64,000 bases of DNA, from the IMG/VR virus record IMGVR_UViG_3300032235_000647, positions 66,195 to 130,194 of that record; one strand, written 5' to 3'. This document shows positions 14,711-41,288 of this stretch, piece by piece. Source of the stretch: a virus. Every line of letters begins with the position of its first letter. Within the stretch, counting starts at the first letter, position 1. Made by a program: the position numbers and the translations under genes. The notes under the pieces are model-generated. The model made no database searches. It had not been told where the DNA came from and was given only the letters and a program-made list of their open reading frames with translations.

Positions 14711-14839
14711 TTAGTGATTTTTATATACAAACGGATCTCGTTTACGAAGTTCTTCTAATTTTTTCTTGTAGATTTCTTGTCTTTTTTTCTCTTCTCGCTT
14801 ATTTTTAAAATAAGCTATAATTTTCTTGATTGGGTTCAT
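14711..14839 (-). CDS. Small basic protein (42 aa)
   Basis: Below ORF-track cutoff: MNPIKKIIAYFKNKREEKKRQEIYKKKLEELRKRDPFVYKNH; fills the gap after the glycan block. Confidence 0.65.
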   Translation of the reverse strand: MNPIKKIIAYFKNKREEKKRQEIYKKKLEELRKRDPFVYKNH

Positions 14840-16271
14840 TTTCTAATAATTTATTAAGGTTATTAACATAAGTATCTGAAATATATTCTTCACTCATTGA
14901 AAGTAAATGATTTCTATTGTATTCTAATATCGGATATAATTTTTCATATAATTCATCCCATTCTTCATTTGTTTTTTCTACTAATGATTTTACTACTTCA
15001 TATACTTTTATAATCCTTTCAGAATTATTTTGTATAGTATCATAAGATTCATCCCAAAACTCTGAAAAAGTTTTGAATCCCCATTTTTGTAGTTGATTTA
15101 TTATACCTGGCTTACCCAATATTACAAATGGATGTAAGTGAGCAATTCCTTTAAATGTTTTTTCCGAAATATAATGTCCATGTTCGTAAAATAAAGTTTC
15201 GGTTATTAAACTAAAATATGTGTTTAAGTATGGTTCTTTCTGTTCAAATCCAAATCCCCAAACTTTTCCAATATTATCATAATCAATTATATTCTTTGGA
15301 TTTTTACTTAATTTAAAATACCCACCAATCATTTTAGATTTATATTGTTTATTTTGAATATATGAAACACCATCATAATCGGTACCATTTGCCAATTCTA
15401 ATCCCATATCGTCAAGACCATAATCCCATAATGTCAAATCAATCGAGTACTCACATTCTTTTAACAAACCATCAGTTTGAAGTAAACTTAAAATAATTAC
15501 TCTATGTGGTGCAACTCTTCTATTATATATTAAACATTTTTTTGGTTTATTTTTTGTATTCTTTAATTCATTTAGATTCATTAAAGAACATTCATTTGCA
15601 TTTCCATTAAATTCAAATACTGAATCTGTACTTAACAAATGTTCGGTCTCTTTTTTCTTAGCAGTTACTGACCAGCAATAATACGCAGTATAAAATTGTT
15701 CTGATTCTAAATTATTTTTTAAATACTCTTCGTAAATATCACGAGTATTCATTGATGAAGATATTACAATAACTTTTTTTGGTGGTATATCTAATTCTTT
15801 ACATTTTTTATGCAAATTTTCAAATAAAGAGTTTCTTATATCACCTTCACTACTATAATCCACAACTAAATAAAAATTAGTAGCATTTCTTAAATATTTT
15901 TTAGCAATTTCAGATATAAAATCAAATGAATGTGTATGTTCATGATAATTTGTATTTTTACCAGTACAAGTATCAATACTACCATACGGATGAACTGTCA
16001 TTAAAAATAATGATTTATCCATTGAGTTTTCAAGAATTTTTTCATTCTCATCATATCTTACATCTGATATGTGTAAATCATTTAAACTCAATGGTAAATT
16101 CAAATTACATTCATATACAGGTACTTGAACGTATTTTGAATTAAAAGTTTCTATAAAATTGTGATTAATCACAAAATTATTATTCCAAATATCATCAGTA
16201 AAATTCCAATTCCACCCAGTAGGAACAAATCCAGCAGGTCCCACTACATCAAATAATCTTTTAATTTTCAT
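14805..16271 (-). CDS. Putative glycosyltransferase, GT10-like C-terminal domain (paralog 1)
   Basis: FSLITET..ISEKTFK..HPFVILG..GFKTFSEFWDESYD, resembling the GT10 donor-binding (Y/I)xSEK motif. Confidence 0.65.
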   Translation of the reverse strand: MKIKRLFDVVGPAGFVPTGWNWNFTDDIWNNNFVINHNFIETFNSKYVQVPVYECNLNLPLSLNDLHISDVRYDENEKILENSMDKSLFLMTVHPYGSIDTCTGKNTNYHEHTHSFDFISEIAKKYLRNATNFYLVVDYSSEGDIRNSLFENLHKKCKELDIPPKKVIVISSSMNTRDIYEEYLKNNLESEQFYTAYYCWSVTAKKKETEHLLSTDSVFEFNGNANECSLMNLNELKNTKNKPKKCLIYNRRVAPHRVIILSLLQTDGLLKECEYSIDLTLWDYGLDDMGLELANGTDYDGVSYIQNKQYKSKMIGGYFKLSKNPKNIIDYDNIGKVWGFGFEQKEPYLNTYFSLITETLFYEHGHYISEKTFKGIAHLHPFVILGKPGIINQLQKWGFKTFSEFWDESYDTIQNNSERIIKVYEVVKSLVEKTNEEWDELYEKLYPILEYNRNHLLSMSEEYISDTYVNNLNKLLENEPNQENYSLF

Positions 16272-16809
16272 AATATAATTCAGGATATTCTACTAAAATA
16301 ATTGGTCCATTTGATGATAATGCTTTTTTATATGCAGGAAGAATTTTATCAGCTGAATCCAATTTTATAATGGGAATATGTTTTAACATTGAAGAAAATT
16401 CATCAGAATAATCTGCCTTATGTTGATGGCCAGGATCCAATGGTTTATCAGAACCCTTTCCTACTCTAATGATTACATTTGGAATAAATTGACCATCTGA
16501 CATTGATTCAAGTTTATCCAAATGATTTATTAATTGGTTTGATGCACAAATAAGAAAATCCCATCTTGGATAAAATGATACTACACGATGACCTGTCATG
16601 GCCAACCCAATACTCATACCCATCTGAGTTTCCTCCATTACTGGAGTTTCAATCATTCGTTCTTTTGGTAACCCTTCAATAGTTTTACTCATTGGGTTTC
16701 CATAATATACAATTTGTTGGCCAATAAAAATTGTGGAAGGGTCTTCCATGCACAATTTCATTGATTCTGTCAATGCATCTAAATACGGTGTATATTGTGG
16801 TGAACTCAT
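16261..16809 (-). CDS. TPP-dependent enzyme, E1-beta/transketolase pyrimidine-binding domain only
   Basis: ETPVMEETQMGMSIGLAMTG, DFLICASNQLIN, GHQH; 182 aa, lacks the E1-beta C-terminal domain. Confidence 0.85.
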   Translation of the reverse strand: MSSPQYTPYLDALTESMKLCMEDPSTIFIGQQIVYYGNPMSKTIEGLPKERMIETPVMEETQMGMSIGLAMTGHRVVSFYPRWDFLICASNQLINHLDKLESMSDGQFIPNVIIRVGKGSDKPLDPGHQHKADYSDEFSSMLKHIPIIKLDSADKILPAYKKALSSNGPIILVEYPELYYEN

Positions 16810-17801
16810 TATGGTCTTGAATTTGGATTATACTGATGTTTGTTTTCTTTATACCACTCAAGTGTTTCTTTAAGTGCCTGTTTCAAATCTCTTTTAGGTT
16901 TCCAACCTGCTGTATTTATTTTCTTTGATGATAATAAACGAATCGGAATCATTGGTGCCTTATTATTTACATAAGAAATAGGATTATCATTTCCTTCTAT
17001 TTCTTTAATCCATCCCAACACTTCATTTACACTAAATCCTTCACCATACGCAACATTAAAGATATTATATGTATCGTTGTTTTCGGCAACCCAAATGAAC
17101 CCATCTGCCATATCTTCAACATGAAGTAAATCTCTAACTTCAGAGCCATCACCCCATACTGGAATTGGATTTAATCCATCAGCAACTTTACGAATATTTG
17201 CAGGAGTAACATGACATTTTTCGAAATCAAATTTATCGTTTGGTCCAAATGCATTTGAAGGTCTAACAATCAAACACTGCATTGGATTGTGAATTTGGTG
17301 TGAAAAATAATCACAAAGTAATTCACCATATCGTTTCATATTACCAACTGCTCCATAAATTGGAAAAGTTGGAGTTGCGTGAATGTTTATATCTTCGGTA
17401 CAAAACTCATCCTTCATATCAGGATAAACGGTATTAGATGAAATGAATAGAAATTTCTTTACTCCATTTCTCCAACTTTGTTCCATAAGATTTACATTCA
17501 TTTCAACATTAGGTGTTACATGAAGTAATGGATTTTCTTTTGTATCTAATGCGTTAGATGTATTTGCTGCACAATGAAATACAACATCTACATCCTTTGT
17601 AACATTTTCACAAAAAAACTTTGTCTGCAAATCACCTTGAAAATGGTGTACTGATTCCCATCCATCAAAATCACCTCTTAAATCTCTTGAAAAAGAAGTT
17701 GATCTTAAATTTCTATAACCTTTTTCCCAAAGTAATCGCAGTAAATGTGAACCAATGAATCCACTTGCACCCGTAACTAAAATAGTATCTGTTTTTTTCA
17801 T
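16809..17801 (-). CDS. NDP-sugar epimerase/reductase (GDP-fucose synthase-like extended SDR)
   Basis: TGASGFIG, RPSNAFGPNDKFD..HV.PA.I, VWGDGSEVRDLLHVED. Confidence 0.85.
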   Translation of the reverse strand: MKKTDTILVTGASGFIGSHLLRLLWEKGYRNLRSTSFSRDLRGDFDGWESVHHFQGDLQTKFFCENVTKDVDVVFHCAANTSNALDTKENPLLHVTPNVEMNVNLMEQSWRNGVKKFLFISSNTVYPDMKDEFCTEDINIHATPTFPIYGAVGNMKRYGELLCDYFSHQIHNPMQCLIVRPSNAFGPNDKFDFEKCHVTPANIRKVADGLNPIPVWGDGSEVRDLLHVEDMADGFIWVAENNDTYNIFNVAYGEGFSVNEVLGWIKEIEGNDNPISYVNNKAPMIPIRLLSSKKINTAGWKPKRDLKQALKETLEWYKENKHQYNPNSRP

Positions 17802-17804
17802 AAC

Positions 17805-18770
17805 TTATTTTTTATACTCATTTAAATAATAATCAATTGTTTGTTTTAATCCTTCTTTAAGGGATACTTGTTGAATAATACCAAATGATTCTGCTCTTTC
17901 GGTACTCATCAATCTTTTTGTATCGCCGTTTGGTTTTGTTGGGTCCCACTCAATATCCACTTTAACTCCATACATTTCTTCGTAGATTTCTACAAGAGTT
18001 TCTGCAAGTTCTTTGATTGTTACACCAGTTCCACTACCCAAATTAATTGGTTGTGTTAATTTTTGTTCGTACGCCTTAATAATTCCATCGGCAATATCAC
18101 CTGCATAGATAAAATCTCTAATAGGTGAACCATCTCCCCAACATACCAATGGATGTTCTTTTTCACCAAACAATCTTTTAATAAGTGATGCAATTACGGT
18201 TGATTCAGGTCCAAAATTATCGTGTCTACCATAAATGTTAGCAGGTCTTACAATTGACGCCTTATTCCAGTCATAAGATACTGAATAAACTTCTGCTTGT
18301 AATTCACCTAGTCTCTTTGCCCATCCAGCATATTTATCTTTTTCCGATGGGAAAGTTTTCCAAACATCATCTTCATAAAATACTTCTGCTGGTTGATAAA
18401 CTCCAACCGTTGAAGTGTATACATACCATTCAACATCTTCCAATCTTGCTGCTTCCATCATATTGGTGTTGAATTGTAACATTGGTACAAAATAATCTGC
18501 AGGTTGCTCCATTGCTCTTTTCGGAGAACCCTTTACACCTGCAATATGAAAAATTATTTCTTGTCCTTTTACAACTTGTTTACACGAATCAAATTCTCTC
18601 AAATCTGCCTTGATAAACTGATAATTACCATCTTTATACTTTTCAACTTGATTCATTGGTTCGTGGATATCCACTGCTGTTACAAGTGCACCTTTATCGA
18701 TACACTTTTGAACCATATAATTACCAACTAATCCATTGGCACCTGTTATTAAAACCTTTTTACCTTCCAT
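17805..18770 (-). CDS. NDP-sugar epimerase/reductase (GDP-fucose synthase-like extended SDR)
   Basis: TGANGLVG, RPANIYGRHDNF, WGDGSPIRDFIY, INLGSG, WDPTKPNG. Confidence 0.85.
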   Translation of the reverse strand: MEGKKVLITGANGLVGNYMVQKCIDKGALVTAVDIHEPMNQVEKYKDGNYQFIKADLREFDSCKQVVKGQEIIFHIAGVKGSPKRAMEQPADYFVPMLQFNTNMMEAARLEDVEWYVYTSTVGVYQPAEVFYEDDVWKTFPSEKDKYAGWAKRLGELQAEVYSVSYDWNKASIVRPANIYGRHDNFGPESTVIASLIKRLFGEKEHPLVCWGDGSPIRDFIYAGDIADGIIKAYEQKLTQPINLGSGTGVTIKELAETLVEIYEEMYGVKVDIEWDPTKPNGDTKRLMSTERAESFGIIQQVSLKEGLKQTIDYYLNEYKK

Positions 18771-18805
18771 TTTCTTATTTTATATATACATATATGTTTT
18801 TATTT

Positions 18806-19930
18806 TTATATTGGTTTCCTACCATCGTTTTTAATTAAATCAGTAAAATTTGATTGAATATAAATTTTATTAAATTTATATAAACGATTTACTTCATCAA
18901 CAAAATTATGATATTCATTATGCTCCTCCATCCAAACTGCTTTACGTGTAAATGATTCATAATCCATGTGAGTCCATTGATATATTTTACCAAAATAAAC
19001 AAGAGTTGCTTCGGAGTATTGTTGTTTCTGAATTCTATTTTCAAATTTTTTGTAAATCAATTCAGCAAACTCCCTCATTTCTTTGTAATTATCTAATTGA
19101 GTAACAAATGAACATCTTAAATTTTGTATAGTCGGTATAGTACTAATAAAATCTAAATTCTCCATTAAAACTTCCCAATTACCACCAATTCTTGTTTTAT
19201 TTTCGTAGGTATCTTTTGTAGCAGCATCTATTGATATTTCTACTGATTTAACATACGGATGTGCCTTTTCTATCCTCTTCCAATTCTTTTCATTAAATAA
19301 ATTGGCATTAGTTGTCAAATAAATATCATCCAAATTTGGCCATAATTTTGGGTCAAATTCAAATAAAAATTTTCTAAATGATTTTGATGCCCAAGGGTCA
19401 CCACTACCTGTTATTGCTAATTTTCTTGCTTCTTTTGAATAGTTATTTTTTATAAAATCAGTTATATTATCAATTTTTATAATTTCATTTGGTTTTGCCA
19501 TTATAACGTGTAATCTACATGATGGACATTTTAAATTACAACTATCATCATAAGTAAAATTAATTGAACCAGGTCCTGAACTTATATTTTTGTCATCTAC
19601 TACAAATCCATCATGCATTTTAAATGGTAATTTTTCTTTTTCTACAAAAAATCCACTTGCTTTTTGAGTGTTTATCAATGTACTTAAATGAGGACAGGCA
19701 GTTTTATGACAATGTGAATACGAACCATCTAAAACAGATTCTCTGATTTTATTTGCAGTTTCAGATTTCCAAACATCGTAATTTAATGTACCATCTTCAT
19801 TTTTACCATACCATAATTTTGTTTCCAACCAAGTTGGACAACATAATGTTGCATGGTCTTCAAAAAATTCTATATGTTTGAATGGTTGAATACAAATATA
19901 TTTTTTAAGAATGTCTTCTTTATTTTTCAT
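18806..19930 (-). CDS. Radical SAM protein with N-terminal SPASM/Twitch-like Cys domain
   Basis: CNLKCPSC; N-terminal C..P..CC..C...CP cluster; GSGDPW. Confidence 0.85.
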   Translation of the reverse strand: MKNKEDILKKYICIQPFKHIEFFEDHATLCCPTWLETKLWYGKNEDGTLNYDVWKSETANKIRESVLDGSYSHCHKTACPHLSTLINTQKASGFFVEKEKLPFKMHDGFVVDDKNISSGPGSINFTYDDSCNLKCPSCRLHVIMAKPNEIIKIDNITDFIKNNYSKEARKLAITGSGDPWASKSFRKFLFEFDPKLWPNLDDIYLTTNANLFNEKNWKRIEKAHPYVKSVEISIDAATKDTYENKTRIGGNWEVLMENLDFISTIPTIQNLRCSFVTQLDNYKEMREFAELIYKKFENRIQKQQYSEATLVYFGKIYQWTHMDYESFTRKAVWMEEHNEYHNFVDEVNRLYKFNKIYIQSNFTDLIKNDGRKPI

Positions 19931-19931
19931 G

Positions 19932-29624: not shown

Positions 29625-29828
29625 TTATTTTTTATCACCTTCATCGATGTATTTTTCTTTCCAAAGGGATAAATACCATTCAATTCTTGGTCCCCATGTA
29701 TCCTTATCAATCTCTTCAAACCAAATGGTTAATGCGTCAAGAGAGTTGGCAATTTTTTCTAATGCCTTAACTTTTCTCTCTTCAAGAATTTGTTGATTTT
29801 CGTTTGTTTCAGTTGTTTTTGTAGCCAT
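29625..29828 (-). CDS. Small hypothetical protein
   Basis: 67 aa, preceded by the recurrent promoter-like motif. Confidence 0.65.
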   Translation of the reverse strand: MATKTTETNENQQILEERKVKALEKIANSLDALTIWFEEIDKDTWGPRIEWYLSLWKEKYIDEGDKK

Positions 29829-29850
29829 AACTTTTATTTTAATTCGTATA

Positions 29851-29858
29851 TATAAATA
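29851..29858 (-). promoter_or_regulatory. Recurrent TATTTATA motif
   Basis: About 23 nt upstream of the start at 29828. Confidence 0.6.
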
Positions 29859-29866
29859 TATTATTT

Positions 29867-34848: not shown

Positions 34849-36285
34849 TTAAATACAAGTAAATGGACCACTCATAGAACTACCATTCCATAAATAATAT
34901 CCACCATCACCTTGTAAATATATAGAATTAGGCCACAGACCACCATTACAATTGCTAACAGATGTACTTGGACCATAATATAAAGTATTGGTATTAACAC
35001 TTGTTGTACTAAAATATCCATTTAATGTTCTTGGATTGTTACATACTTGAGTTGTTGTTGTACCTGACCCAATTGTCAATAAGAAACATGGTGGTAATGT
35101 AGTTGTTGTAGTAGTTGTAGTTGTAGTTGTTGTTGGTGGATCAGTTGTTGTTGTAGTTGTAGTTGGTGCTGCAGTTGTAGTAGTAGTTGTAGGTGCTGCA
35201 GTTGTTGTTGTAGTTGTTGTAGTAGTTGTAGTCGTGGTACAATTAACTACCACTGGCGTATTTTGTATAGAAACTGTTCCTACTGAATCCATCACTGCAA
35301 TATACCAAGATCCATTCGGTATATTACTCCAAGAATATGGATTTGATGAAACAGAATATCTTGTTCCACCAAGACCATTAATTGCTTGGATAGCATTAAA
35401 TTGTGAATTTTCTATGGCAATATAGCTATAAGTTCCACTACCACCTGAAATAGTTGATGTGAATGAGCCAACATTACCAAAGCAAGTTACTCCACTATTT
35501 GTTATGGTTAATGGAGGTAAAGTTGTAGTTGTAGTTGTTGTAGTTGTAGTACAATTAAATGTTACTTGACCGATATAAATCTCATTTGAATAAGATGTAT
35601 CGGTTACATATACATTATATGTATCAAATGAACCTAATCCAGTAAACACATTAAATGATTGAATTGTATTCGTACCATCCGATGTTCTTGTAATTCTATA
35701 ACTATAATTACCACTACCACCTGTTGCAGTAATATTAATAGTTCCTACACCATTACTATCACAGCTACTTGCAAATGTTCCGGCCAATGCAGGTAAACAA
35801 TCAATTACAATTGGATTTGAACTATATGTATAAATTATATTATCAGTTACGCTTTTTACTTTTATGTTATAATTTCCATCATTTAAGTTATTAAATGTAA
35901 ATGTATTTGAGGAAGTGGTTGAAGTAAAACTAGCACCATTATCATAACTATATTGATACTGCCCACTTCCACCTGAAACGGTGATTACAATTCTACCACT
36001 TCCTTCGTACATGACACAGCTACCAACCACACTTGTAAATGTAATTGGTGAAAAAGTTGTAGTGGTTGTAGTTGTGGTGGTTGTAGTTGTAGTTGTAGTT
36101 GTAGTTGTTGTGGTTAAACTCTTACCATAAAACTCATCCATACCCAGCTGATTAGTACCATCAGTTGTATAAGAAACCGAATAAACATTACCAGCTGAAG
36201 CCAAATCAATTTGAGTACCAGATGAGATTCCTCTATCGGTATTCATATCATTCATACTAATTTGACCTGAACTTGGTAATGGCAT
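34849..36285 (-). CDS. Mucin-like fibre/adhesin protein: poly-Thr tracts and SprB-like repeats
   Basis: N-terminal MPLPSSGQISM motif typical of genes following S74 fibres; three Thr tracts; repeats VSGGSGQYQYS, ATGGSGNYSY, ISGGSGTYSY with Cys. Confidence 0.8.
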   Translation of the reverse strand: MPLPSSGQISMNDMNTDRGISSGTQIDLASAGNVYSVSYTTDGTNQLGMDEFYGKSLTTTTTTTTTTTTTTTTTTTTFSPITFTSVVGSCVMYEGSGRIVITVSGGSGQYQYSYDNGASFTSTTSSNTFTFNNLNDGNYNIKVKSVTDNIIYTYSSNPIVIDCLPALAGTFASSCDSNGVGTINITATGGSGNYSYRITRTSDGTNTIQSFNVFTGLGSFDTYNVYVTDTSYSNEIYIGQVTFNCTTTTTTTTTTLPPLTITNSGVTCFGNVGSFTSTISGGSGTYSYIAIENSQFNAIQAINGLGGTRYSVSSNPYSWSNIPNGSWYIAVMDSVGTVSIQNTPVVVNCTTTTTTTTTTTTTAAPTTTTTTAAPTTTTTTTDPPTTTTTTTTTTTTLPPCFLLTIGSGTTTTQVCNNPRTLNGYFSTTSVNTNTLYYGPSTSVSNCNGGLWPNSIYLQGDGGYYLWNGSSMSGPFTCI

Positions 36286-39200
36286 TATTTATTCTTTTTT
36301 AATTCTTCAATTTCTAATTTTAATTCTTTTATACACTCTACCAAAAGTGGAACTACTTTACTATAATCAATAGTTAAATAGTCTTCACCTGTTACCGAAC
36401 CTCCCTTACCATCTTTATCAAATGGTGCTATACTTACAACTTCTGGCAAAATTTCTTTTACTTCTTGAGCAATTAATCCAACTTGTTTATTATCATTTTT
36501 TTCATATCCAAATCTTTCAGCTACTTCACTTTGTGTGTAATAAACTCCATTTAATTTTTGGATTTTATCTAATGGATTTTCAATTTTTCCAATAATATTT
36601 TTTAATCTTTTATCGGAATAATATGCAATTACGTTTCCATAACATTGTATTTCTTTTAGTACTTGAACATTACCATCCGTATCAATTCTAAATCGTAGTG
36701 GTCTTATAACACTACTATAAGTAGCATCATTTACGGGAGTACCGGTATGTACTCTAAAAGTACTTGTACCAATTGTTATACCACCACCATCTTTTAATAC
36801 TCCTTGATTTTCAGATAATGAACCATTTGAATATGATATACCTGGTCTATCATAAATCATAGCCTCTTGAGTTCTCGGTAACCATTGACTCGATTGTAAC
36901 GAATCATTTTCATCAGTACTACCAGTTGGAAATTTGAAAAAATCGGTAGATTGTAATGGTGTATTGAAAAATAATCCATCAGTACGAAATCCACCTTTAG
37001 AATCATTAAATACAATAGATTTTCCAGCCAAAGCAATAGGCATACCACCTGCAGTATTATGTCTAAAGAATCTTTCATTATCAGTACTTACAACGAAACC
37101 ATTATTATTAATTGTTGTAGTTCTATAAAGACTAGAATCTACTCCAGGATCAGTTGTTCCACTTGTAGATACTTGAAATCTCGTATTACTTCCTTCTAAT
37201 AATTCAATTTTATTAGCTGATGAATTTAATCGAATTGTACTACCAGACTGAGTTTTAAAAATACCAGTACTATTAACACTCCATCCACCAATCGTAGCTG
37301 AAGTTGCAGTAACATTTCCTGCAGAATCTACACTAAATAATGGAGACGATGCGTTTGGTACATTTATAGTACCACCTACGATAGCTCCACCTTGAACTGT
37401 ACCTGTAAAGGTACCACTACCACTTACAACTAAGTTACTACCATCCCAAAATAATCCTCCACCTGAACCAACTAATGACATTATACCGCTTGTTCCATTA
37501 CTTCCTATAAAGACACCATTGTTTCCGTATGCCTTTGTAGATTGTCCAATCGATATATAAGGTGATGTTGTACCCCCCGCAATTGTTATATTAGCGTTAC
37601 CACTTGTGTTCGTACCAACATTTATTGTATTTTGTACAAATGATTCTCTAAATATTGCAATTTCTGCAGCCACAAAGAATGAATCAGTACCGAGAGATTC
37701 CCAGAATGTACCAGTATTCAAATCTGGTCTTTTATTTAAGTTTGTAGTTGCATTCGGTAAAGTTGCATAATAAGTTCCACTATATAATACAGCATCTCTA
37801 CGAGTAGGTACATCATCGGTATCAAAATAAGTTACTGATGCACTCCAAGGCCCTCTGAAAACTATACCTGGTCCATCTGCTCCATCTGAACCCGAAGCAC
37901 CAGTTGAGCCAGATGGACCTGAATCACCAATCCCAGTAACACCAACTTCAAAATTTATTACATTTCCGGTAAATTGAGTTCCTTCTGAATTTCTATATGA
38001 TAAGGTAACCACCCCATTTGTTCCATTTAAATTGTTAGGAGTTGTTGGTGTAATAAAAGTGTTAGGAGCAGTATGTGAACCACTTGTTACATTTGTTATA
38101 TTAAATGTACTCGGGCCACTTGTGTTATAGGTATAATTCGAACCACCTTCATTTACAATTATTGAAATGGTTGATGGAGTACCTATACCAACAAGAGACC
38201 CACTTATTACAGTTTGAGATTGTGGATTTGCAGAAATAGTAACAACTGGGGCAGAACTCCGTACTCGTGAAACTGATGCTACCACATTTTTAGTACCACT
38301 AACACCCTCACTATCGGTAAAATTTACAGGTATAGTTACGGTGCCTGTGTCCGAAGTCATACTTGATGCATTACTTGAAAATACGAAGGTATTTGAAACA
38401 TTACTTCCATTTAAACCATTTGTAAAAGTTGGAGTCCCAAGAGAACTAAATCTATTAGTACCACCTTCTAATGCAGTTATGGTCAAAGTTTGTGGAGTAG
38501 CTGAACCACTACCACGAGAATTGGATTGAATCGATTGAGCAGTTGGAGAAACTGCAACTTCTATGTTCGGTGTTGCTGCCTTTGATTTGCTATATGATAC
38601 GGTTTTGGAAATATCGGTTGTATCACCTGCTCCATCTTTATATCTAACAATTACATTTATTGAACCAGAATCTACTCCATTGAGTGAAGTAATTCCGTAT
38701 TGGTTGATTGTTGGATTTGATGAATTAACGGTAATGCCCGTACTACCACTAACTGATATAATAGCAAATGTATTATTTCCTTGCCCATCACCCTCATCAT
38801 CAAATATAATAGTTTCATTACCAACCTTTACATCTACCGAGCCACTTGTTAATATAAATGAACCACTTTGTACAAAACCAGTAGACCTTGCAGGTAAGGA
38901 CGCGTTTTCATTTGTTAAAGTTACAGATAAACCATCGAGAATTTTAATCGGTGTAATTTTTATGGTATCATGGTAATCAATATCATAGGTATCAGATGCA
39001 GTAAAAAAATATGTGGCAGAACCAGACCTAAAATTAAAATTAGAACCGGATAAGAAGTAAGTTGCTACTCCAGTTGTTGGGTCATCAAACAACAATGATA
39101 ATGGTGCAGCAGTTCCAAATTCACTACCAGAGTTGATAATAATTGGTTCACCAGACGTACCTAAATTCTTTCTTCGTACATCAAAAGTTATTACCTGACT

Positions 39201-41288
39201 TGATGGATTTAATGTTAAATCCGTTGCCTTATAAATAAATTGATTTGCAGTTGATGAAGCAAATATCCCTGGGGCATTATCACCATCTTCCAATCTATAA
39301 ATTGTTTCGAAGTCTTCTAATCCTTCTGCAGATGCTGTATAAACAATAAATCCAACTCTAAATGTACTAGTTGTTGAAGTATCTAATGAACCACTAAATT
39401 CGTCTATTTGTACAACAAAACCGGCAGAAGAAGATGCATGTAATCTACCAGGATATTCTAATCCACCTAATGAAAGATATTCGGCCTCACTAATATAACT
39501 ACCAGTTATGTCAAAAACTGATCTTCCATATACAACATCACTCACGATGTTTTGACGAGTTGTACTAAATCCAATTTGTTGAAATGGTGGATTTGCAAAT
39601 GAACCAGTTACAAATCTAAATGCATTTCTATCAGAATTAATTGTTAATATTTTTGTTGATGTTGGAAAATCATTACCACCATCAAAAGTACCAACAGCTG
39701 TTACATCAACTGGAATATAATTGTTATTTATATCATAAAACTCAAATCTGAAATCAAATGTTTCAATTGGTAATTTTCTAGGTATATCCTGAACTAATAT
39801 AAACTCATCTGGAGAAAAGGATGTTTCTTGTGCATTTTTCAAAGAAACATTTGATATATACCAATCCGAACCACTAATCTCAAATACCAATTTTGCATTA
39901 GAAGCAGATATAGGATTTGCAATAATATTTTGAGTAACGATTTGCCTAGTTTTGTATATATCCGACCCACTTATAGTTAAAAAAGTTTGCTGGTATCCAT
40001 CGGATGATGAGAGGTATCCCTTGAGGTATTCTGACCCATTTAGGGAACCACTAATTAATGTTTTGAATGTTAGGGTATATTCTACGTCTTTGGAAATAAC
40101 AAATGATTCCGATGTAATAAGGTGTTGAACACCACCGGCAGAAAAGTTATAATCAGTTTTAATAGATGATTGAAGAACATCCACATTTACCGATAAAGGG
40201 TGGTCATTTGATGAAGATAACCAATACGTAGATAAATTGAATTGCGAAAAATTTCCATAAGAAATTTCAGTATCAGTTGATACGGTTATATCTCTCAATA
40301 ATTCTGATGCTTCTAATTTTGATTCTTGGACGAACTGGAAATCAGTTACCTCATTTCTTGATTTTCGGAATACTTTTACTCTTGCAACATCACCAACAAA
40401 TGTTTTAAGATTTGATATTTGAATCCTTGCAAATGAACCAGTAAGTGTAGATTCACTAACAGTTTGTCCTTCTAAAAATTCAAATGTGGTTTGATATAAA
40501 GATGATGTAAAATTTTGTACTATGTTATTAACTGAATATGGTACATCAACTAATACTTCTTTGTTATTTAAAACCTCACGAACAACAGGCGAATACCCTA
40601 ACGATGGAATCGATATAGTATTTTCATCTACCGAAGAAGTCCAATTAGTCCCATCGATAATTTTTAATTTATATATAGTTCCAGCAGTCCATGTGGAAAG
40701 ATTAGAACCAAGTGATGGTTGTAACGCAATACCCTCTAATGAACCAGTTTGAGTTATACTCGGAATTGTTTTAGAAAAAATAGGTTTAACTAATTCTGTG
40801 ATAGATACCAACGGCCTTCTATAAAAACGAACAGTATCTTCATTAGAGATGTTTCTGTTGATTTTAAAGGTCCTTTCCCACTTTACATTATAAACCCCCT
40901 TCCATTCATCAGGAACCGGTAAGCGAGTCCCATTTTCGTTTATATACTCTTTTAATTCACCAAGTATAGTTATCTTACCAATTCCAATTGGAGTATCGGG
41001 ATAAACATGAACGGATACCAAACTTGATAATCCTTCGTAATAATCGGGAGTTCCTTTACCTGGTTCAAAATAAACTGGGTTTCCCTCAACATCAAGTATT
41101 TCTATTTTTACTTCAGTTGTTTCTTTTAAGAACTCTGAACCCTCTATTAAGAATCCATTCTTACCACCACTAAAAGCTTCTTTGAATTCGGTAACTCTAA
41201 AAAAATCTGAATTGGGGTTTCTATCAACTATGAAAGTTGAAAAGTTAGAAAGATTCTGAAAAGGTGAAAACGATTTTATTATGGCCAT
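36285..41288 (-). CDS. Large tail fibre with C-terminal intramolecular chaperone (peptidase S74-like)
   Basis: AYYSDKRLKN..L.KI..LNGVYY..QVGLIAQEV..ILPEVV..DYSKVVPLLVECIKEL; short GXY collagen-like stretch. Confidence 0.88.
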   Translation of the reverse strand: MAIIKSFSPFQNLSNFSTFIVDRNPNSDFFRVTEFKEAFSGGKNGFLIEGSEFLKETTEVKIEILDVEGNPVYFEPGKGTPDYYEGLSSLVSVHVYPDTPIGIGKITILGELKEYINENGTRLPVPDEWKGVYNVKWERTFKINRNISNEDTVRFYRRPLVSITELVKPIFSKTIPSITQTGSLEGIALQPSLGSNLSTWTAGTIYKLKIIDGTNWTSSVDENTISIPSLGYSPVVREVLNNKEVLVDVPYSVNNIVQNFTSSLYQTTFEFLEGQTVSESTLTGSFARIQISNLKTFVGDVARVKVFRKSRNEVTDFQFVQESKLEASELLRDITVSTDTEISYGNFSQFNLSTYWLSSSNDHPLSVNVDVLQSSIKTDYNFSAGGVQHLITSESFVISKDVEYTLTFKTLISGSLNGSEYLKGYLSSSDGYQQTFLTISGSDIYKTRQIVTQNIIANPISASNAKLVFEISGSDWYISNVSLKNAQETSFSPDEFILVQDIPRKLPIETFDFRFEFYDINNNYIPVDVTAVGTFDGGNDFPTSTKILTINSDRNAFRFVTGSFANPPFQQIGFSTTRQNIVSDVVYGRSVFDITGSYISEAEYLSLGGLEYPGRLHASSSAGFVVQIDEFSGSLDTSTTSTFRVGFIVYTASAEGLEDFETIYRLEDGDNAPGIFASSTANQFIYKATDLTLNPSSQVITFDVRRKNLGTSGEPIIINSGSEFGTAAPLSLLFDDPTTGVATYFLSGSNFNFRSGSATYFFTASDTYDIDYHDTIKITPIKILDGLSVTLTNENASLPARSTGFVQSGSFILTSGSVDVKVGNETIIFDDEGDGQGNNTFAIISVSGSTGITVNSSNPTINQYGITSLNGVDSGSINVIVRYKDGAGDTTDISKTVSYSKSKAATPNIEVAVSPTAQSIQSNSRGSGSATPQTLTITALEGGTNRFSSLGTPTFTNGLNGSNVSNTFVFSSNASSMTSDTGTVTIPVNFTDSEGVSGTKNVVASVSRVRSSAPVVTISANPQSQTVISGSLVGIGTPSTISIIVNEGGSNYTYNTSGPSTFNITNVTSGSHTAPNTFITPTTPNNLNGTNGVVTLSYRNSEGTQFTGNVINFEVGVTGIGDSGPSGSTGASGSDGADGPGIVFRGPWSASVTYFDTDDVPTRRDAVLYSGTYYATLPNATTNLNKRPDLNTGTFWESLGTDSFFVAAEIAIFRESFVQNTINVGTNTSGNANITIAGGTTSPYISIGQSTKAYGNNGVFIGSNGTSGIMSLVGSGGGLFWDGSNLVVSGSGTFTGTVQGGAIVGGTINVPNASSPLFSVDSAGNVTATSATIGGWSVNSTGIFKTQSGSTIRLNSSANKIELLEGSNTRFQVSTSGTTDPGVDSSLYRTTTINNNGFVVSTDNERFFRHNTAGGMPIALAGKSIVFNDSKGGFRTDGLFFNTPLQSTDFFKFPTGSTDENDSLQSSQWLPRTQEAMIYDRPGISYSNGSLSENQGVLKDGGGITIGTSTFRVHTGTPVNDATYSSVIRPLRFRIDTDGNVQVLKEIQCYGNVIAYYSDKRLKNIIGKIENPLDKIQKLNGVYYTQSEVAERFGYEKNDNKQVGLIAQEVKEILPEVVSIAPFDKDGKGGSVTGEDYLTIDYSKVVPLLVECIKELKLEIEELKKNK

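What the first reader, a model, noticed from the sequence alone, without database searches (positions are those of the whole stretch)
14805..41288. Candidate phage-encoded mucin/proteoglycan-like O-glycosylation system for tail fibres
Seen: one co-oriented run goes tail fibre -> poly-Thr fibre protein -> HPAT/SERGT1-like transferase -> radical SAM -> GT-B -> methyltransferase -> GT2-like -> two GT7 -> LamG -> GT10-like paralogs and NDP-sugar enzymes. The promoter-like motif of the structural genes recurs in this run. Established: GT95/GT96 initiate O-glycans on peptide hydroxyls; GT7 and GT10 extend and cap glycans in eukaryotes. Inference: acceptor, initiator, elongators, decorators and donor synthesis for a virion glycan coat that could serve shielding, host-surface mimicry or adhesion. 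No base-hydroxylating or hydroxymethylating enzyme is seen in the window, which favours protein over DNA as acceptor.
Basis: partly seen in the sequence, partly recalled or inferred. Interest (0 to 1): 0.9.

Follow-up and report, generated by a model that had tools for sequence, protein, structure and literature searches.

The report
Phage poly-threonine fibre protein glycosylation cassette
A large uncultured phage encodes, right after its tail-fibre gene, a protein full of threonine runs followed by a sugar-adding enzyme, and this same pairing recurs in many unrelated phages, which suggests that phages sugar-coat their own particles far more often than is currently recognised.

Summary
The gene run is real: 22 co-oriented minus-strand genes at 14805-41288, in a T4-like phage record about 65% complete.

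It consists of two separable modules.

**Module A** is the poly-Thr protein, a 314-aa glycosyltransferase and a radical-SAM/SPASM enzyme.
- The 314-aa enzyme is a GT-A fold with a DxD motif. It most resembles GT8-type retaining enzymes (LgtC, glycogenin; Z about 15). It does not match HPAT/SERGT1 by HMM.
- In 41 of 53 dereplicated phage loci carrying a homologue, the gene directly upstream has poly-Thr/Ser tracts, against 28 of 734 other genes.
- In 9 of 9 cultured phages examined, Thr-rich tracts (weak in phage 9183) sit on capsid or tail-tube C-termini or on the gene next to the enzyme.
- This strongly suggests O-glycosylation of poly-Thr tracts on virion proteins.

**Module B** is 399 aa to 488 aa: two GT7-LamG enzymes, three GT-B paralogues, NDP-sugar enzymes, a split TPP enzyme and two more radical-SAM enzymes.
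- It is a conserved block placed after the fibre genes in related phages.
- Two complete relatives carry it without the 314-aa enzyme or any poly-Thr gene, so its acceptor remains open.

Complete relatives encode a CMP-hydroxymethylase-like protein in a region this record lacks.

Verdict: a new variant of phage virion glycosylation.

The parts
41306..41315 (-). Promoter-like motif ATATTTATAT, 18 nt upstream of the tail-fibre start codon
   Evidence: In the 130-kb record there are 19 copies on the gene strand and 1 on the other strand, and 18 of the 19 are intergenic.
36285..41288 (-). Tail fibre, 1667 aa, with a C-terminal Peptidase_S74 intramolecular chaperone domain
   Evidence: PHROG tail-fibre families down to E 1.9e-30. 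Pfam PF13884 at E 3.2e-12. Homologues of 52-80% identity sit in the same position in relatives.
34849..36285 (-). Poly-Thr fibre-like protein, 478 aa. Layout: N-terminal domain 1-57; T20 58-77; two Ig-like Cys-bracketed repeats 78-245; T10 246-255; third repeat 256-349; T-rich tract 350-397; Cys-containing C-terminal domain 398-478.
   Evidence: 117 Thr (24.5%) and 10 Cys. Its start overlaps the fibre stop codon (TAATG). Its N-terminal ~55 aa are 37-39% identical to the second fibre proteins of relatives G002 and G003. It is the only protein of 122 in the record with long S/T runs; the fibre has one 6-residue run.
33891..34835 (-). 314-aa GT-A glycosyltransferase (phrog_4417). GT8-like, with a DxD motif at D104/D106. 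Proposed poly-Thr O-glycosyltransferase.
   Evidence: PHROG at E 1.7e-59. AF2 pLDDT 97.6. VIA-align: LgtC Z 14.9, glycogenin Z 14.7, GlyE Z 13.2. Conserved D104 (>=90%), D106, Q174 and H262 invariant. Synteny with poly-Thr genes.
32866..33936 (-). Radical SAM / SPASM enzyme, 356 aa. It overlaps the GT gene by 46 nt. Role unknown.
   Evidence: Pfam Radical_SAM 45.5 bits and SPASM 34.7 bits, both above cut-off. A natural fusion of GT and rSAM-SPASM exists (P0127). It lies next to the GT homologue in 8 of 80 loci.
31636..32835 (-). 399-aa protein, first gene of the conserved block. Possibly a GT-B glycosyltransferase, but unverified.
   Evidence: No Pfam, NCBIfam or PDB hit. ESM Atlas features resemble viral clusters with Glycos_transf_1 or AGT, as leads only. 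It follows the fibre genes in G001-G003 at 54-80% identity.
30706..31488 (-). Methyltransf_24-type methyltransferase, 260 aa
   Evidence: Pfam at E 1.9e-10, 42 bits against a cut-off of 26.3.
29867..30718 (-). GT2-like protein, 283 aa (weak call)
   Evidence: Glyco_tranf_2_4 at E 2.8e-5, 25.0 bits, below the 27.5 cut-off.
29850..29859 (-). Second copy of the promoter-like motif, 22 nt before a 67-aa ORF
29625..29828 (-). Small 67-aa ORF between the motif and the first GT7 gene. Function unknown.
   Evidence: The coordinates were worked out by hand from the printed gap sequence.
28325..29620 (-). GT7 (beta4GalT-like) enzyme with an inserted LamG domain, 431 aa
   Evidence: Glyco_transf_7N at E 2.8e-18 and 7C at E 1.6e-15. 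28% identical to its neighbour over the full length.
26862..28328 (-). GT7 enzyme with an inserted LamG domain, 488 aa
   Evidence: Glyco_transf_7C at E 6.7e-19, 7N at E 3.3e-15, Laminin_G_3 at E 3.7e-13. PDB beta4GalT7 at E 2.7e-27.
25381..26838 (-). Twitch-domain radical SAM protein, 485 aa
   Evidence: NCBIfam NF033640 at E 1e-105, 354 bits against a cut-off of 170. Present in 59 of 80 loci that carry the GT-B paralogue.
24617..25384 (-). Stand-alone LamG/ConA-like protein, 255 aa
   Evidence: ESM Atlas feature score 0.99 and structure TM 0.83 to viral Laminin_G_3 clusters. No Pfam hit.
23199..24635 (-). GT-B paralogue, 478 aa
   Evidence: Aligns with the 373-aa and 488-aa paralogues and shares the conserved block GFKTF..WDESYD.
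22234..23202 (-). Extended-SDR NDP-sugar epimerase/dehydratase, 322 aa
   Evidence: Pfam Epimerase at E 6.4e-36. All NCBIfam equivalogs score below cut-off.
21666..22250 (-). RmlC-like 3,5-epimerase, 194 aa
   Evidence: Pfam dTDP_sugar_isom at E 1.8e-39. TIGR01221 scores 119 bits, below the 155.75 cut-off.
21038..21676 (-). TPP-binding protein like half of the PDH E1 alpha subunit, 212 aa
   Evidence: Pfam E1_dh at E 9.8e-15. TIGR03182 at E 5.9e-25, covering profile positions 16-176 of 315.
19932..21053 (-). GT-B paralogue, 373 aa (the one modelled)
   Evidence: AF2 pLDDT 91.7. VIA-align: H. pylori alpha1,3-FucT Z 11.2, FUT9 10.5, EXT1/2 10.6, T4 AGT 10.3.
18806..19930 (-). Radical SAM protein, 374 aa
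   Evidence: Pfam Radical_SAM at 30.4 bits against a cut-off of 29.5. Found in 7 of 80 related loci.
17805..18770 (-). Extended-SDR NDP-sugar enzyme, 321 aa. GDP-fucose-synthase-like, below cut-off.
   Evidence: About 90% identical across related loci.
16809..17801 (-). Extended-SDR NDP-sugar enzyme, 330 aa
16261..16809 (-). Protein like half of the PDH E1 beta subunit (pyrimidine-binding), 182 aa. Partner of the alpha-like half.
   Evidence: NF006667 at E 8.9e-16, covering positions 7-177 of 327. Transket_pyr at E 1.7e-4.
14805..16271 (-). GT-B paralogue, 488 aa. Last gene of the run.

Best explanation
The run holds two modules.

**Module A (32866-36285)** is a portable cassette for glycosylating a virion protein.
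- The 478-aa protein is a fibre-associated decoration protein. It has three Ig-like, Cys-bracketed domains strung on poly-Thr linkers.
- It is translationally coupled to the tail-fibre gene and transcribed from the structural-gene promoter.
- The 314-aa enzyme is a soluble, GT8-like, metal-dependent (DxD) GT-A glycosyltransferase. It is probably retaining.
- I propose that it transfers a sugar from a nucleotide sugar to the Thr hydroxyls of those tracts, in the cytoplasm, before or during assembly.
- The radical-SAM/SPASM partner alters either the sugar or the peptide. Which one is unknown.

**Module B (14805-32835)** is a glycan factory conserved in this phage lineage and placed after the fibre genes.
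- Its products are inferred to be modified 6-deoxy sugars, possibly C-branched via the split TPP enzyme, and methylated.
- It carries about seven further candidate transferases.
- In this phage it most likely extends the glycan started on the poly-Thr protein, or glycosylates the fibres. This link is inferred, not shown.

**Shown:** the genes, folds, motifs, synteny statistics and modularity.
**Inferred:** the acceptor, donor, stereochemistry, and any cooperation between the two modules.
For: **The enzyme**
- GT-A fold, pLDDT 97.6.
- D106, Q174 and H262 are invariant and D104 is conserved in at least 90% of 53 family members.
- Nearest solved folds are all GT8-type retaining enzymes: LgtC Z 14.9, glycogenin 14.7, Skp1 alpha-GalT 14.0, UGGT 14.0, and GlyE of the pneumococcal serine-rich-repeat pathway 13.2.

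**Synteny with poly-Thr genes**
- 80 IMG/VR loci with a homologue (47-73% identity) collapse to 54 clusters at 90% identity.
- In 41 of the 53 evaluable clusters the gene directly upstream has a Thr run of at least 6 or an S/T/P run of at least 10. The rate for other genes of at least 100 aa is 28 of 734 (Fisher p 5e-39). Most of those 28 also lie 1-4 kb upstream.
- PHROG hits were found for 3 of 10 such upstream proteins, and all three are structural: one major tail protein and two virion structural proteins.

**Cultured phages, 9 examined of 77 records with a hit; Thr-rich tracts in 9 of 9**
- Enterococcus 4995_1: the capsid protein ends TTTTTTKPTTTTTTTQA, directly before the GT gene.
- Lacticaseibacillus R3.3: the capsid-position and tail-tube-position proteins end in T runs.
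- Staphylococcus SA2 and Clostridium phiCTP1: the tail-tube proteins end in T runs, directly before the GT gene.
- Enterococcus nattely and 9183: the tail-tube C-termini are T-rich, only weakly so in 9183.
- Lactobacillus LpeD: a 135-aa protein of 42% Thr lies before the GT gene.
- Lactobacillus 521B: an Ig-like protein ends in PTTVA repeats before the GT gene.
- Chryseobacterium MA9V-3: two poly-T/S proteins lie before the GT gene and a tail-collar fibre after it.

**Bacterial genomes**
- 11 of 15 Bacillota prophage-like loci show the same pattern.

**Within this record**
- Only the 478-aa protein has long S/T runs among 122 genes.
- No cluster protein has a plausible membrane span, so there is no Wzx, Wzy or initiating phosphotransferase.

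**Link between the two modules**
- Homologues of the 314-aa enzyme occur fused to GT2, GT32-like, GT6, GT7C, Methyltransf_24 and rSAM-SPASM domains. This was seen in 6 of 10 long members scanned.
- GT2, GT7, Methyltransf_24 and rSAM-SPASM, four of those six families, are encoded next to it here.
- The structural-gene promoter motif heads both transcription units.
Against: - No biochemical data exist. The phage is uncultured and no virion has been examined.
- 12 of the 53 clusters lack a poly-Thr neighbour. In those the enzyme sits among other transferase-like genes.
- 45 long fused forms in Bacteroidota chromosomes have a Thr-rich neighbour in only 1 case. The fold family is therefore not restricted to poly-Thr acceptors.
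- Module B exists without the 314-aa enzyme in two complete relatives and one close fragment. No poly-Thr gene lies in the 20 kb read upstream of their module B. Module B therefore does not need module A.
- GT8-type enzymes also act on lipo-oligosaccharide, as LgtC does.
- After masking the tracts, the upstream poly-Thr proteins fall into only 7 single-linkage families. One family holds 31 of 40, probably joined through shared Ig-like repeats. The number of independent associations is therefore smaller than the locus count.
- The loci are related phages, so the Fisher p-value overstates independence.
Confidence: 0.6

Rival explanations
1. Module B, and perhaps the whole run, remodels the host cell-surface polysaccharide (LPS, capsule or glycoprotein glycan) during infection. 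This is the usual reading of 'LPS / cell-wall' gene clusters in large marine phages. On this view the poly-Thr tracts are only flexible linkers.
For: - Large cyanomyoviruses carry comparable sets of up to 13 glycosyltransferases plus NDP-sugar epimerases and RmlC. Their authors interpret these as host-surface modification (passages of PMC12801897).
- Module B occurs in complete relatives without the poly-Thr/314-aa cassette.
- LgtC, the top structural match of the 314-aa enzyme, acts on lipo-oligosaccharide.
- Long-form homologues sit in Bacteroidota chromosomes with a Thr-rich neighbour in only 1 of 45 cases.
Against: - No membrane protein, flippase, polymerase or initiating phosphoglycosyltransferase is present in the run.
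- The block always sits directly after tail-fibre genes in the three relatives read.
- The block is headed by the motif that also precedes the sheath, baseplate-hub and fibre genes.
- This view does not explain the tight pairing of the 314-aa family with poly-Thr tracts on capsid, tail-tube and fibre proteins.
Confidence: 0.2
2. Some or all of the GT-B enzymes of module B glycosylate hydroxymethylated bases in the phage DNA, building a complex DNA-linked glycan that blocks host nucleases.
For: - The GT-B paralogue model matches T4 AGT (Z 10.3), a phage HY126 glycosyltransferase (Z 10.3) and T4 BGT (Z 10.1). These are tied with the GT10 matches.
- ESM Atlas features of the 399-aa protein include a cluster carrying Pfam AGT, as a lead only.
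- Complete relatives G002 and G003 each carry a canonical ThyA and also a divergent 232-238-aa thymidylate-synthase-fold protein.
- In G002 that protein's best PDB match is CMP 5-hydroxymethylase at E 4e-6.
- This region has no counterpart in the present 65%-complete record, so its absence here says nothing.
- Phage glycosyltransferases that hypermodify DNA with diverse glycans have been reported. I saw this only as a citation of Pyle et al. 2024 in PMC12619734.
Against: - In G002 the hydroxymethylase-like gene sits in the replication/nucleotide module. Its neighbours are an AsnB-like amidotransferase, a PLP-like enzyme and methyltransferase-like genes, with no transferase beside it. It lies about 85 kb from module B. 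This points to a non-sugar hypermodification.
- No Pfam AGT, Tet_JBP or C5-methylase hit was found in the 130-kb record.
- Module B carries the structural-gene promoter motif and sits among fibre and packaging genes.
- GT7-LamG and GT8-like enzymes have no known DNA acceptors. This last point is recalled, not tested.
Confidence: 0.08
3. The poly-Thr tracts are unglycosylated spacers. On this view the 314-aa enzyme travels with them only because both belong to a mobile 'decoration' cassette, and its real acceptor is something else, such as a small molecule or a host protein.
For: - After masking, 31 of 40 upstream poly-Thr proteins join one single-linkage family. This suggests a shared mobile Ig-like plus poly-Thr element.
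- In 12 of 53 clusters the enzyme has no poly-Thr neighbour.
Against: In the Gram-positive phages examined, the Thr tract is just a short C-terminal tail on otherwise ordinary capsid or tail-tube proteins, with no shared Ig-like element. The enzyme gene still sits next to them. The only common feature across these unrelated carriers is the Thr tract itself.
Confidence: 0.1

Closest known systems
Mycobacteriophage virion glycosylation (Che8, Rita and others; Freeman et al. 2023, Cell Host Microbe). The paper itself is not held. I know it only from citing passages in PMC12619734, PMC11256854 and PMC13313380.
   Same: - Phage-encoded glycosyltransferases are involved.
- Glycans are reported at the C-termini of capsid and tail-tube subunits. 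That is exactly where the Thr tails sit in the Gram-positive phages carrying the 314-aa family.
- Modification is cytoplasmic.
   Different: - The enzyme family differs. No Mycobacterium phage is among the 77 phage records with a tblastn hit.
- The acceptor signature here is homopolymeric Thr.
- The hosts are Bacillota, Bacteroidota and unknown aquatic bacteria.
- In this window the carrier is a fibre-associated multi-domain protein with internal linkers, and a 17-gene glycan factory lies next to it.
Glycosylation of bacterial serine-rich-repeat adhesins (GtfA/B, Gtf3/GtfC, and the GT8 enzymes GlyD/GlyE acting on PsrP/Fap1-type proteins)
   Same: - Soluble cytoplasmic transferases decorate long Ser/Thr-rich tracts of a surface fibre protein.
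- GlyE (GT8) matches the 314-aa model at Z 13.2.
- GtfC/Gtf3 match the GT-B paralogue at Z about 9.3, and GtfC is the top Foldseek hit.
   Different: - There is no accessory Sec export system, because virions assemble in the cytoplasm.
- No GtfA/B homologue was identified.
- The structural similarity is at fold level only, with 8-13% identity.
CAZy family GT8 (LgtC, glycogenin)
   Same: - GT-A fold, a DxD motif, and an invariant C-terminal His.
- Best structural matches at Z 14-15 over 230 or more residues.
   Different: - There is no Pfam hit to any family, Glyco_transf_8 included, at E up to 5.
- Sequence identity is 7-12%.
- The family is catalogued only as phrog_4417, 'unknown function'.
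'LPS / cell-wall modification' gene clusters of large cyanomyoviruses (P-SSM2, S-SCSM1, S-SCSM2R)
   Same: Many glycosyltransferases plus NDP-sugar epimerases and RmlC in a large aquatic myovirus (passages of PMC12801897).
   Different: - Here the block sits directly after the tail-fibre genes under the structural promoter motif.
- It contains GT7-LamG fusions, a split TPP enzyme and radical-SAM enzymes.
- It abuts a poly-Thr acceptor cassette.
   Same: Dense O-glycosylation of hydroxy-amino-acid tracts is the proposed outcome. The GT7 enzymes are genuine relatives of animal beta4GalT1/7.
   Different: - There is no HMM support for HPAT.
- There are no membrane anchors.
- The initiating enzyme is GT8-like.

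Membership tests
GT8-type retaining GT-A glycosyltransferases | GT-A (single Rossmann-like) fold | tested here: met
   AF2 model at pLDDT 97.6. Foldseek and VIA-align top hits are all GT-A enzymes of GT8/GT24 type, at Z 13-15 with 210-248 residues aligned.
GT8-type retaining GT-A glycosyltransferases | DxD metal/nucleotide-sugar motif plus a C-terminal His ligand | tested here: met
   D106 and H262 are invariant and D104 is present in at least 90% of 53 aligned members. That these correspond to the Mn ligands of LgtC and glycogenin is recalled, not aligned residue by residue.
GT8-type retaining GT-A glycosyltransferases | Match to the family's sequence model (Pfam Glyco_transf_8) | tested here: not met
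   No Pfam family matched at E up to 5 for the protein. Glyco_transf_8 is not among the 18 families hit by any of the 53 members at E up to 1.
GT8-type retaining GT-A glycosyltransferases | Retention of anomeric configuration | not testable with these tools
   This needs product analysis.
GT95/GT96 (HPAT / SERGT1) peptidyl-hydroxyl glycosyltransferases | Match to Pfam HPAT (PF23452) | tested here: not met
   No hit for the 314-aa protein at E up to 5. No hit anywhere in the 130-kb record at E up to 10, although the control genomes were also silent. 1 of 53 family members hit at E 0.23, among 17 other single-member chance families.
GT95/GT96 (HPAT / SERGT1) peptidyl-hydroxyl glycosyltransferases | Type II membrane anchor (recalled feature of the plant enzymes) | tested here: not met
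   The maximum 19-residue Kyte-Doolittle hydropathy is 0.76.
GT95/GT96 (HPAT / SERGT1) peptidyl-hydroxyl glycosyltransferases | Structural similarity to a solved member | not testable with these tools
   No GT95/96 chain appeared in the PDB searches. Whether one is solved at all I know only from recall (none).
GT7 (beta4Gal/GalNAc transferases) | Pfam Glyco_transf_7N and 7C above gathering score | tested here: met
   Both proteins pass: 66.3/56.9 bits and 56.3/67.8 bits against cut-offs of 27/23. PDB beta4GalT7 at E 2.7e-27.
GT10 (alpha1,3/4-fucosyltransferases), for the three paralogues | GT-B fold with nearest neighbours in GT10 | tested here: inconclusive
   The fold is GT-B (pLDDT 91.7). 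H. pylori FucT scores Z 11.2 and FUT9 Z 10.5, but EXT1/2 score 10.6 and T4 AGT 10.3, so they are tied.
GT10 (alpha1,3/4-fucosyltransferases), for the three paralogues | Match to a GT10 sequence model | tested here: not met
   The three paralogues had no glycosyltransferase Pfam hit at E up to 5. A profile of 32 sequences had no significant PDB hit; the best was MGD1 at E 0.28.
Radical SAM / SPASM | Radical_SAM and SPASM domains above cut-off, and a CxxxCxxC cluster motif | tested here: met
   45.5 bits (cut-off 29.5) and 34.7 bits (cut-off 21.5). The motif C-NAK-C-WF-C is visible in the translation.
Phage virion-protein glycosylation system (mycobacteriophage type) | Phage-encoded transferase genetically coupled to a virion structural protein that carries a Ser/Thr-rich acceptor tail | tested here: met
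Phage virion-protein glycosylation system (mycobacteriophage type) | Glycan demonstrated on virion proteins | not testable with these tools
   This needs virions, and the phage is uncultured.
Phage virion-protein glycosylation system (mycobacteriophage type) | Homology of the transferase to those of the mycobacteriophages | tested here: not met
   None of the 77 phage records with a tblastn hit at E up to 1e-5 is a Mycobacterium phage. The mycobacteriophage enzymes themselves were not compared.

The most novel reading that the evidence does not exclude
An uncharacterised GT8-like enzyme family (phrog_4417) is the initiating enzyme of a widespread, unrecognised 'mucin-type' O-glycosylation of phage particles.
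- Its targets would be homopolymeric Thr tails and linkers on capsid, tail-tube and fibre proteins.
- It would operate in phages of Bacillota, Bacteroidota and large aquatic myoviruses.
- In this phage the cassette has been dropped in front of a 17-gene glycan factory. The fibre-associated poly-Thr protein would then carry long, complex glycans, built from branched, methylated 6-deoxy sugars and GT7-added hexoses.
- The result would be a true viral mucin, made entirely in a bacterial cytoplasm.
Probability: 0.3. Interest if true: 0.85.

Novelty: new variant of a known kind. Interest (0 to 1): 0.74.

Why it matters
Glycosylation of bacteriophage particles has so far been shown experimentally only for some actinobacteriophages, according to the passages I read. 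There it changes antibody recognition.

If the pairing found here is enzyme and substrate, three things follow.
- Virion glycosylation would be common in phages of lactic acid bacteria, enterococci, staphylococci, clostridia, Bacteroidota and aquatic bacteria.
- It would have a simple predictive signature: a Thr run at the end of a capsid or tail-tube protein, plus a phrog_4417 gene.
- That bears on phage therapy (immune clearance, stability), dairy phage biology, cryo-EM interpretation of unexplained densities, and the annotation of thousands of 'hypothetical' genes.

The idea can be tested at once in cultured, harmless phage-host pairs.

The separate point also matters. The big 'LPS-like' block sits after the fibre genes and is independent of the cassette. 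This reopens the question of what such blocks in large aquatic phages actually glycosylate.

Tried and rejected
1. **T4 late promoter TATAAATA as the recurring motif.** There were 26 matches against 16.9 expected, and 5 of 100 shuffles reached that number. The matches on the gene strand were mostly inside genes. The real motif is its near-complement on the gene strand, ATATTTATAT.
2. **Megablast of 13.3 kb against cultured phages.** No match. A tblastn search with the poly-Thr protein against cultured phages also found nothing.
3. **Direct PDB sequence searches.** These were run with the 314-aa, 373-aa and 399-aa proteins and with profiles A3 and A4. Nothing significant came back. An hhalign comparison of the 399-aa family with the GT-B paralogue family gave probability 0.9%, so no link was shown.
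4. **The 1052-aa ORF upstream of the fibre gene.** It is not a fibre. It is an SbcCD-like nuclease/ATPase.
5. **The 1829-aa ORF as the missing nucleotidyltransferase for sugar activation.** Only its first ~120 residues are cytidylyltransferase-like. The rest has DUF5661 and a C-terminal KxDG ligase-like motif; the motif assignment is from recall. I left it out of the system. No sugar nucleotidyltransferase was identified in the run.
6. **SprB-type repeats in the poly-Thr protein (recalled resemblance).** Pfam gave only a sub-threshold Y_Y_Y hit at E 0.0012. I describe the repeats simply as Ig-like.
7. **Is the whole run conserved around 314-aa homologues?** It is not. 0 of 80 loci carry the GT7, paralogue or most NDP-sugar genes within the up-to-10-kb flanks that each contig allowed; many contigs are short.
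8. **DNA-modification markers in the record.** Thymidylat_synt, Tet_JBP, DNA_methylase and AGT were all absent. I then showed that the Thymidylat_synt absence is uninformative.
9. **Complex prediction, the look-up of sequencing runs and read laying.** Not used. An enzyme-substrate pair is a poor case for the first, and environmental reads cannot show timing for the others.
10. **Literature searches.** Searches found no paper that describes this enzyme family or poly-Thr tails as phage glycosylation sites. This covers only the held library. Subscription journals and supplementary files were not seen.
11. **Papers opened without useful content.**
   - PMC10877033.
   - PMC13419713, of which only 1,865 characters are held.
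   - PMC13314858.

Full report
**Setting.** The window is the last 64 kb of a 130,194-nt IMG/VR virus record that CheckV rates 65% complete.
- By a simple non-overlapping ORF set, 121 of its 122 genes lie on the minus strand. GC content is about 30%.
- The large terminase is 54.9% identical to that of Microcystis phage Mel-JY01 and 54.6% to Flavobacterium 'immuto' phages. More distant T4-like phages follow.
- Portal, baseplate wedge, sheath, baseplate hub and several fibre genes are present.
- This is therefore a distant T4-like myovirus. Its host is unknown, with hints towards Bacteroidota (see the bacterial-genome results below).

**The observation.** Gene by gene:
- The 1667-aa protein is a tail fibre with a Peptidase_S74 C-terminus.
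- The 478-aa poly-Thr protein starts on the fibre's stop codon (TAATG overlap).
- The 314-aa protein belongs to phrog_4417, annotated 'unknown function' (E 1.7e-59).
- The 356-aa protein is radical SAM/SPASM.
- The 399-aa protein matches no family.
- Next come a Methyltransf_24 enzyme, a weak GT2-like protein, and two GT7 enzymes with a LamG domain inserted in the catalytic domain.
- Then a twitch-type radical SAM at 354 bits and a stand-alone LamG protein, supported by ESM Atlas only.
- Interleaved after that are three paralogues of 478, 373 and 488 aa, three extended-SDR sugar-nucleotide enzymes, an RmlC-like epimerase, a third radical SAM, and the two halves of a PDH-E1-like thiamine enzyme.
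- All NCBIfam matches of the sugar enzymes fall below the equivalog cut-offs. Only superfamily names are justified.

**The promoter-like motif.**
- It is ATATTTATAT on the gene strand. The 130-kb record has 19 copies on that strand and 1 on the other.
- 18 of the 19 are intergenic, although only 4.4% of the record is intergenic. They lie mostly 17-47 nt before a start codon.
- The motif precedes the sheath, the baseplate hub, a 663-aa fibre, the 1667-aa fibre (at 41306), and a small ORF that heads the GT7 genes (at 29850).

**The 314-aa enzyme.**
- It has 2546 relatives at E up to 1e-5 in the 90%-clustered collection. It has 863 representatives at E up to 0.001 in the 50%-clustered library.
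- An alignment of 53 members shows D106, Q174 and H262 invariant, with D104 in at least 90% of members.
- AlphaFold2 gives pLDDT 97.6.
- Foldseek and VIA-align agree on a GT-A fold closest to GT8-type retaining enzymes:

| Match | Z |
|---|---|
| LgtC (rmsd 3.4, 234 residues aligned) | 14.9 |
| Glycogenin | 14.7 |
| Skp1 alpha-galactosyltransferase | 14.0 |
| UGGT catalytic domain | 14.0 |
| WbbM | 13.8 |
| LARGE1 | 13.3 |
| GlyE, pneumococcal serine-rich-repeat pathway | 13.2 |

- Among predicted viral structures, the only close relatives are an uncharacterised Caudovirales protein (TM 0.94) and Lactobacillus phage LP65 Orf49 (TM 0.74). Giant-virus and phage GT8 proteins follow at TM about 0.5.
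The Pfam HPAT model exists in the library but does not match the protein at E up to 5. It matches 1 of 53 relatives at E 0.23, which is noise.

**The key test: co-occurrence with poly-Thr genes.** I fetched the 80 best of at least 595 IMG/VR loci that encode a relative at 47-73% identity.
- After collapsing to 54 clusters at 90% enzyme identity, 53 had an evaluable upstream gene.
- In 41 of these the gene directly upstream, on the same strand, has a Thr run of at least 6 or an S/T/P run of at least 10.
- Among all other genes of at least 100 aa in the same loci the rate is 28 of 734. Most of those 28 are the second gene upstream. Fisher p is 5e-39, inflated by shared ancestry.
- The carriers differ in their N-termini. 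Of 10 scanned against PHROGs, 3 had hits, and all were structural: one major tail protein and two virion structural proteins.
- After masking the tracts, the 40 carriers fall into 7 single-linkage families. One family holds 31, probably joined through shared Ig-like repeats. The association is strong, but the number of independent events is modest within this aquatic set.

**Independent support from cultured phages of other phyla.** 77 phage records have a hit, all below 60% identity and mostly from Lactobacillus, Enterococcus, Staphylococcus and Lactococcus phages. I examined 9, chosen for host diversity before I had seen their sequences. All 9 show a Thr-rich tract on a structural or adjacent protein.

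| Phage | What is seen |
|---|---|
| Enterococcus 4995_1 | Capsid protein ends in two T runs, directly before the enzyme gene |
| Lacticaseibacillus R3.3 | Capsid-position and tail-tube-position proteins both end in T runs |
| Staphylococcus SA2 | Tail-tube protein ends in T8, overlapped by an 88-aa ORF of 44% Thr, then the enzyme gene |
| Clostridium phiCTP1 | Protein in the tail-tube position ends in T runs, then the enzyme gene |
| Enterococcus nattely | Enzyme gene follows the capsid gene; tail-tube C-terminus is T-rich |
| Enterococcus 9183 | Same layout, but the tract is only weak |
| Lactobacillus LpeD | A 135-aa protein of 42% Thr, annotated 'glycoprotein', precedes the enzyme gene |
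| Lactobacillus 521B | An Ig-like protein ending in PTTVA repeats precedes the enzyme gene |
| Chryseobacterium MA9V-3 | Two poly-T/S proteins precede the enzyme gene and a tail-collar fibre follows it |

This is the arrangement reported for mycobacteriophages, where glycans sit at the C-termini of capsid and tail-tube subunits. I know that work only from citing passages.

**Bacterial genomes.**
- 11 of 15 Bacillota loci, which look like prophages, have Thr-rich ORFs. Typically these are a ~200-aa ORF ending just before the enzyme gene and a ~400-aa ORF 3.3 kb upstream.
- 8 of 20 other short-form loci have a poly-Thr ORF near the enzyme gene (7 directly upstream, 1 downstream).
- Only 1 of 45 long fused forms (480-900 aa) has one. 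These are mostly in Chitinophaga, Pedobacter and Sphingobacterium chromosomes.
- The short phage form is therefore the one tied to poly-Thr. The fold family as a whole is broader.

**The acceptor in this phage.**

| Residues | Feature |
|---|---|
| 1-57 | N-terminal domain |
| 58-77 | T20 tract |
| 78-245 | Two Ig-like repeats, each bracketed by Cys |
| 246-255 | T10 tract |
| 256-349 | Third Ig-like repeat |
| 350-397 | 48-aa T-rich tract |
| 398-478 | Cys-containing C-terminal domain |

- The N-terminal ~55 residues are 37-39% identical to the N-termini of the 'second fibre' proteins that follow the main fibre in relatives G002 and G003. This supports a virion location.
- No other protein among the 122 in the record has long S/T runs.

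**Modularity.**
- The 399-aa gene through the 488-aa gene, followed by the 1829-aa gene, form a conserved syntenic block in many large phage contigs.
- Among 80 loci found with the 373-aa paralogue, counts of co-occurring genes within the up-to-10-kb flanks were:

| Gene | Loci of 80 |
|---|---|
| Twitch radical SAM | 59 |
| Two of the SDRs | 55-56 |
| TPP halves | 35-41 |
| RmlC-like | 34 |
| GT7 | 19-21 |
| 314-aa enzyme | 0 |
| Poly-Thr gene | 0 |

- Three relatives were read further upstream. The order there is SbcCD, fibre, (second fibre), 399-aa homologue, methyltransferase, and onwards. There is no poly-Thr gene and no 314-aa enzyme.
- A whole-record search found no 314-aa homologue in two records rated 100% complete, of 276 kb and 289 kb. 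The 289-kb record has terminal repeats.
- The poly-Thr/314-aa/rSAM-SPASM trio is therefore a cassette inserted between the fibre genes and a pre-existing glycan block.

**Evidence that the two modules may still cooperate here.**
- 6 of 10 long homologues of the 314-aa enzyme are natural fusions. The partner domains are GT2, GT32-like, GT6, GT7C, Methyltransf_24 or rSAM-SPASM. Four of these families (GT2, GT7, Methyltransf_24, rSAM-SPASM) are its neighbours here.
- Both transcription units carry the structural promoter motif.

**The GT-B paralogues.**
- The 373-aa model has pLDDT 91.7 and a GT-B fold.
- GT10 enzymes rank first (H. pylori FucT Z 11.2, FUT9 Z 10.5). However, EXT1/2, T4 AGT/BGT and a phage HY126 transferase lie within about 1 Z.
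- 'GT10-like' is therefore possible but not established.

**Rival acceptors.**
- *Host surface.* No protein in the run has a membrane span, so there is no flippase, polymerase or initiating phosphotransferase. Host enzymes could supply these functions. Comparable clusters in cyanomyoviruses are conventionally read this way.
- *DNA.* The record has no Thymidylat_synt, Tet_JBP, C5-methylase or AGT match. That argument collapses on inspection:
  - G002 and G003 each have a canonical ThyA plus a divergent 232-238-aa TS-fold protein.
  - The G002 copy's best PDB match is CMP 5-hydroxymethylase at E 4e-6.
  - None of the 33 ORFs in G002 between 168 and 200 kb has a counterpart in this record.
  - The gene sits among RNR, thioredoxin-like, AsnB-like amidotransferase, PLP-like, methyltransferase-like and DNA polymerase genes, with no transferase beside it.
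  - The lineage may therefore hypermodify its DNA, probably with a non-sugar group. DNA glycosylation by module B cannot be excluded.

**Verdict.**
That idea is a phage-encoded transferase acting on an adjacent poly-Thr virion protein.
- Three things do not hold: the enzyme's family label, the unity of the 26-kb run, and the argument against DNA.
- Relative to what I could find in print, this is a new variant of phage virion glycosylation. It has a different enzyme family, a simple poly-Thr signature, new host phyla, and here an unusually large adjacent glycan factory.
- It can be tested directly in cultured phages.

**Limits.** Supplementary files were not consulted.

Noticed in passing
window 9176-14665 (-): This 1829-aa ORF sits directly after the glycan block and has its own promoter-like motif at 14687. 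Its N-terminal ~120 aa are cytidylyltransferase-like. It has DUF5661 near residue 1160-1220 and a C-terminal region with a KxDG ligase-like motif (motif assignment recalled). Homologues follow the block in 29 of 80 related loci. Its function is unknown. It may be a multi-domain nucleotide or RNA-repair protein.
   Followed up: partly
window 41533-44691 (-): A single 1052-aa ORF combines an Mre11/SbcD-like metallophosphoesterase N-terminus with an SbcC/Rad50-like ATPase. It is conserved at 74-84% identity directly upstream of the fibre gene in relatives.
   Followed up: partly
relative G002, C1:186572-190842 (loci L177, L179, L180): A divergent thymidylate-synthase-fold protein has CMP 5-hydroxymethylase as its best PDB match (E 4e-6). 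It is followed by an AsnB-like amidotransferase, a PLP-enzyme-like protein and a protein with an SPPY methyltransferase motif, all next to RNR and DNA polymerase genes. This looks like a DNA base hypermodification pathway in this phage lineage. The corresponding region is missing from the window's record.
   Followed up: partly
window 26862-29620 (-): Both GT7 enzymes carry a LamG/ConA-like domain inserted between the DxD-containing core and the C-terminal strand segment of the catalytic domain. ESM Atlas lists several all-viral clusters of such GT7-LamG fusions with 50-263 members. The inserted lectin-like domain may hold the acceptor.
   Followed up: partly
window 16261-16809 and 21038-21676 (-): These are two half-size PDH-E1-like proteins, an alpha-like TPP-binding half and a beta-like pyrimidine-binding half. 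They are separated by five genes and conserved in 35-41 of 80 related loci. By analogy with two-carbon branched-sugar pathways (recalled), they may add an acetyl or hydroxyethyl branch to a keto-sugar.
   Followed up: no
window 31489-31635: This is the only sizeable gap inside the first transcription unit. It holds a G-rich element (GGGGGGTAGGGGGGTAG on the gene strand) and the single opposite-strand copy of the promoter-like motif, at 31609. It may be a terminator or a regulatory site between the 399-aa gene and the methyltransferase gene.
   Followed up: no
locus L085 (Staphylococcus phage VB-SauS-SA2) 6117-6930: The major tail protein ends in T8. An 88-aa ORF of 44% Thr overlaps its 3' end in another frame. 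This looks like a programmed-frameshift extension that would add a long poly-Thr tail to a fraction of the tail-tube subunits.
   Followed up: no
loci L189-L247 (Chitinophaga, Pedobacter, Sphingobacterium and related chromosomes): These are long forms (480-900 aa) of the 314-aa family, with the GT-A domain at the N-terminus and an uncharacterised C-terminal half. Only 1 of 45 has a Thr-rich neighbour. This is a chromosomal Bacteroidota branch of the family whose acceptor is probably different.
   Followed up: partly
whole record G000: 121 of 122 called genes are on one strand, and the cumulative GC skew falls monotonically across the window. This extreme strand bias is not explained here.
   Followed up: no
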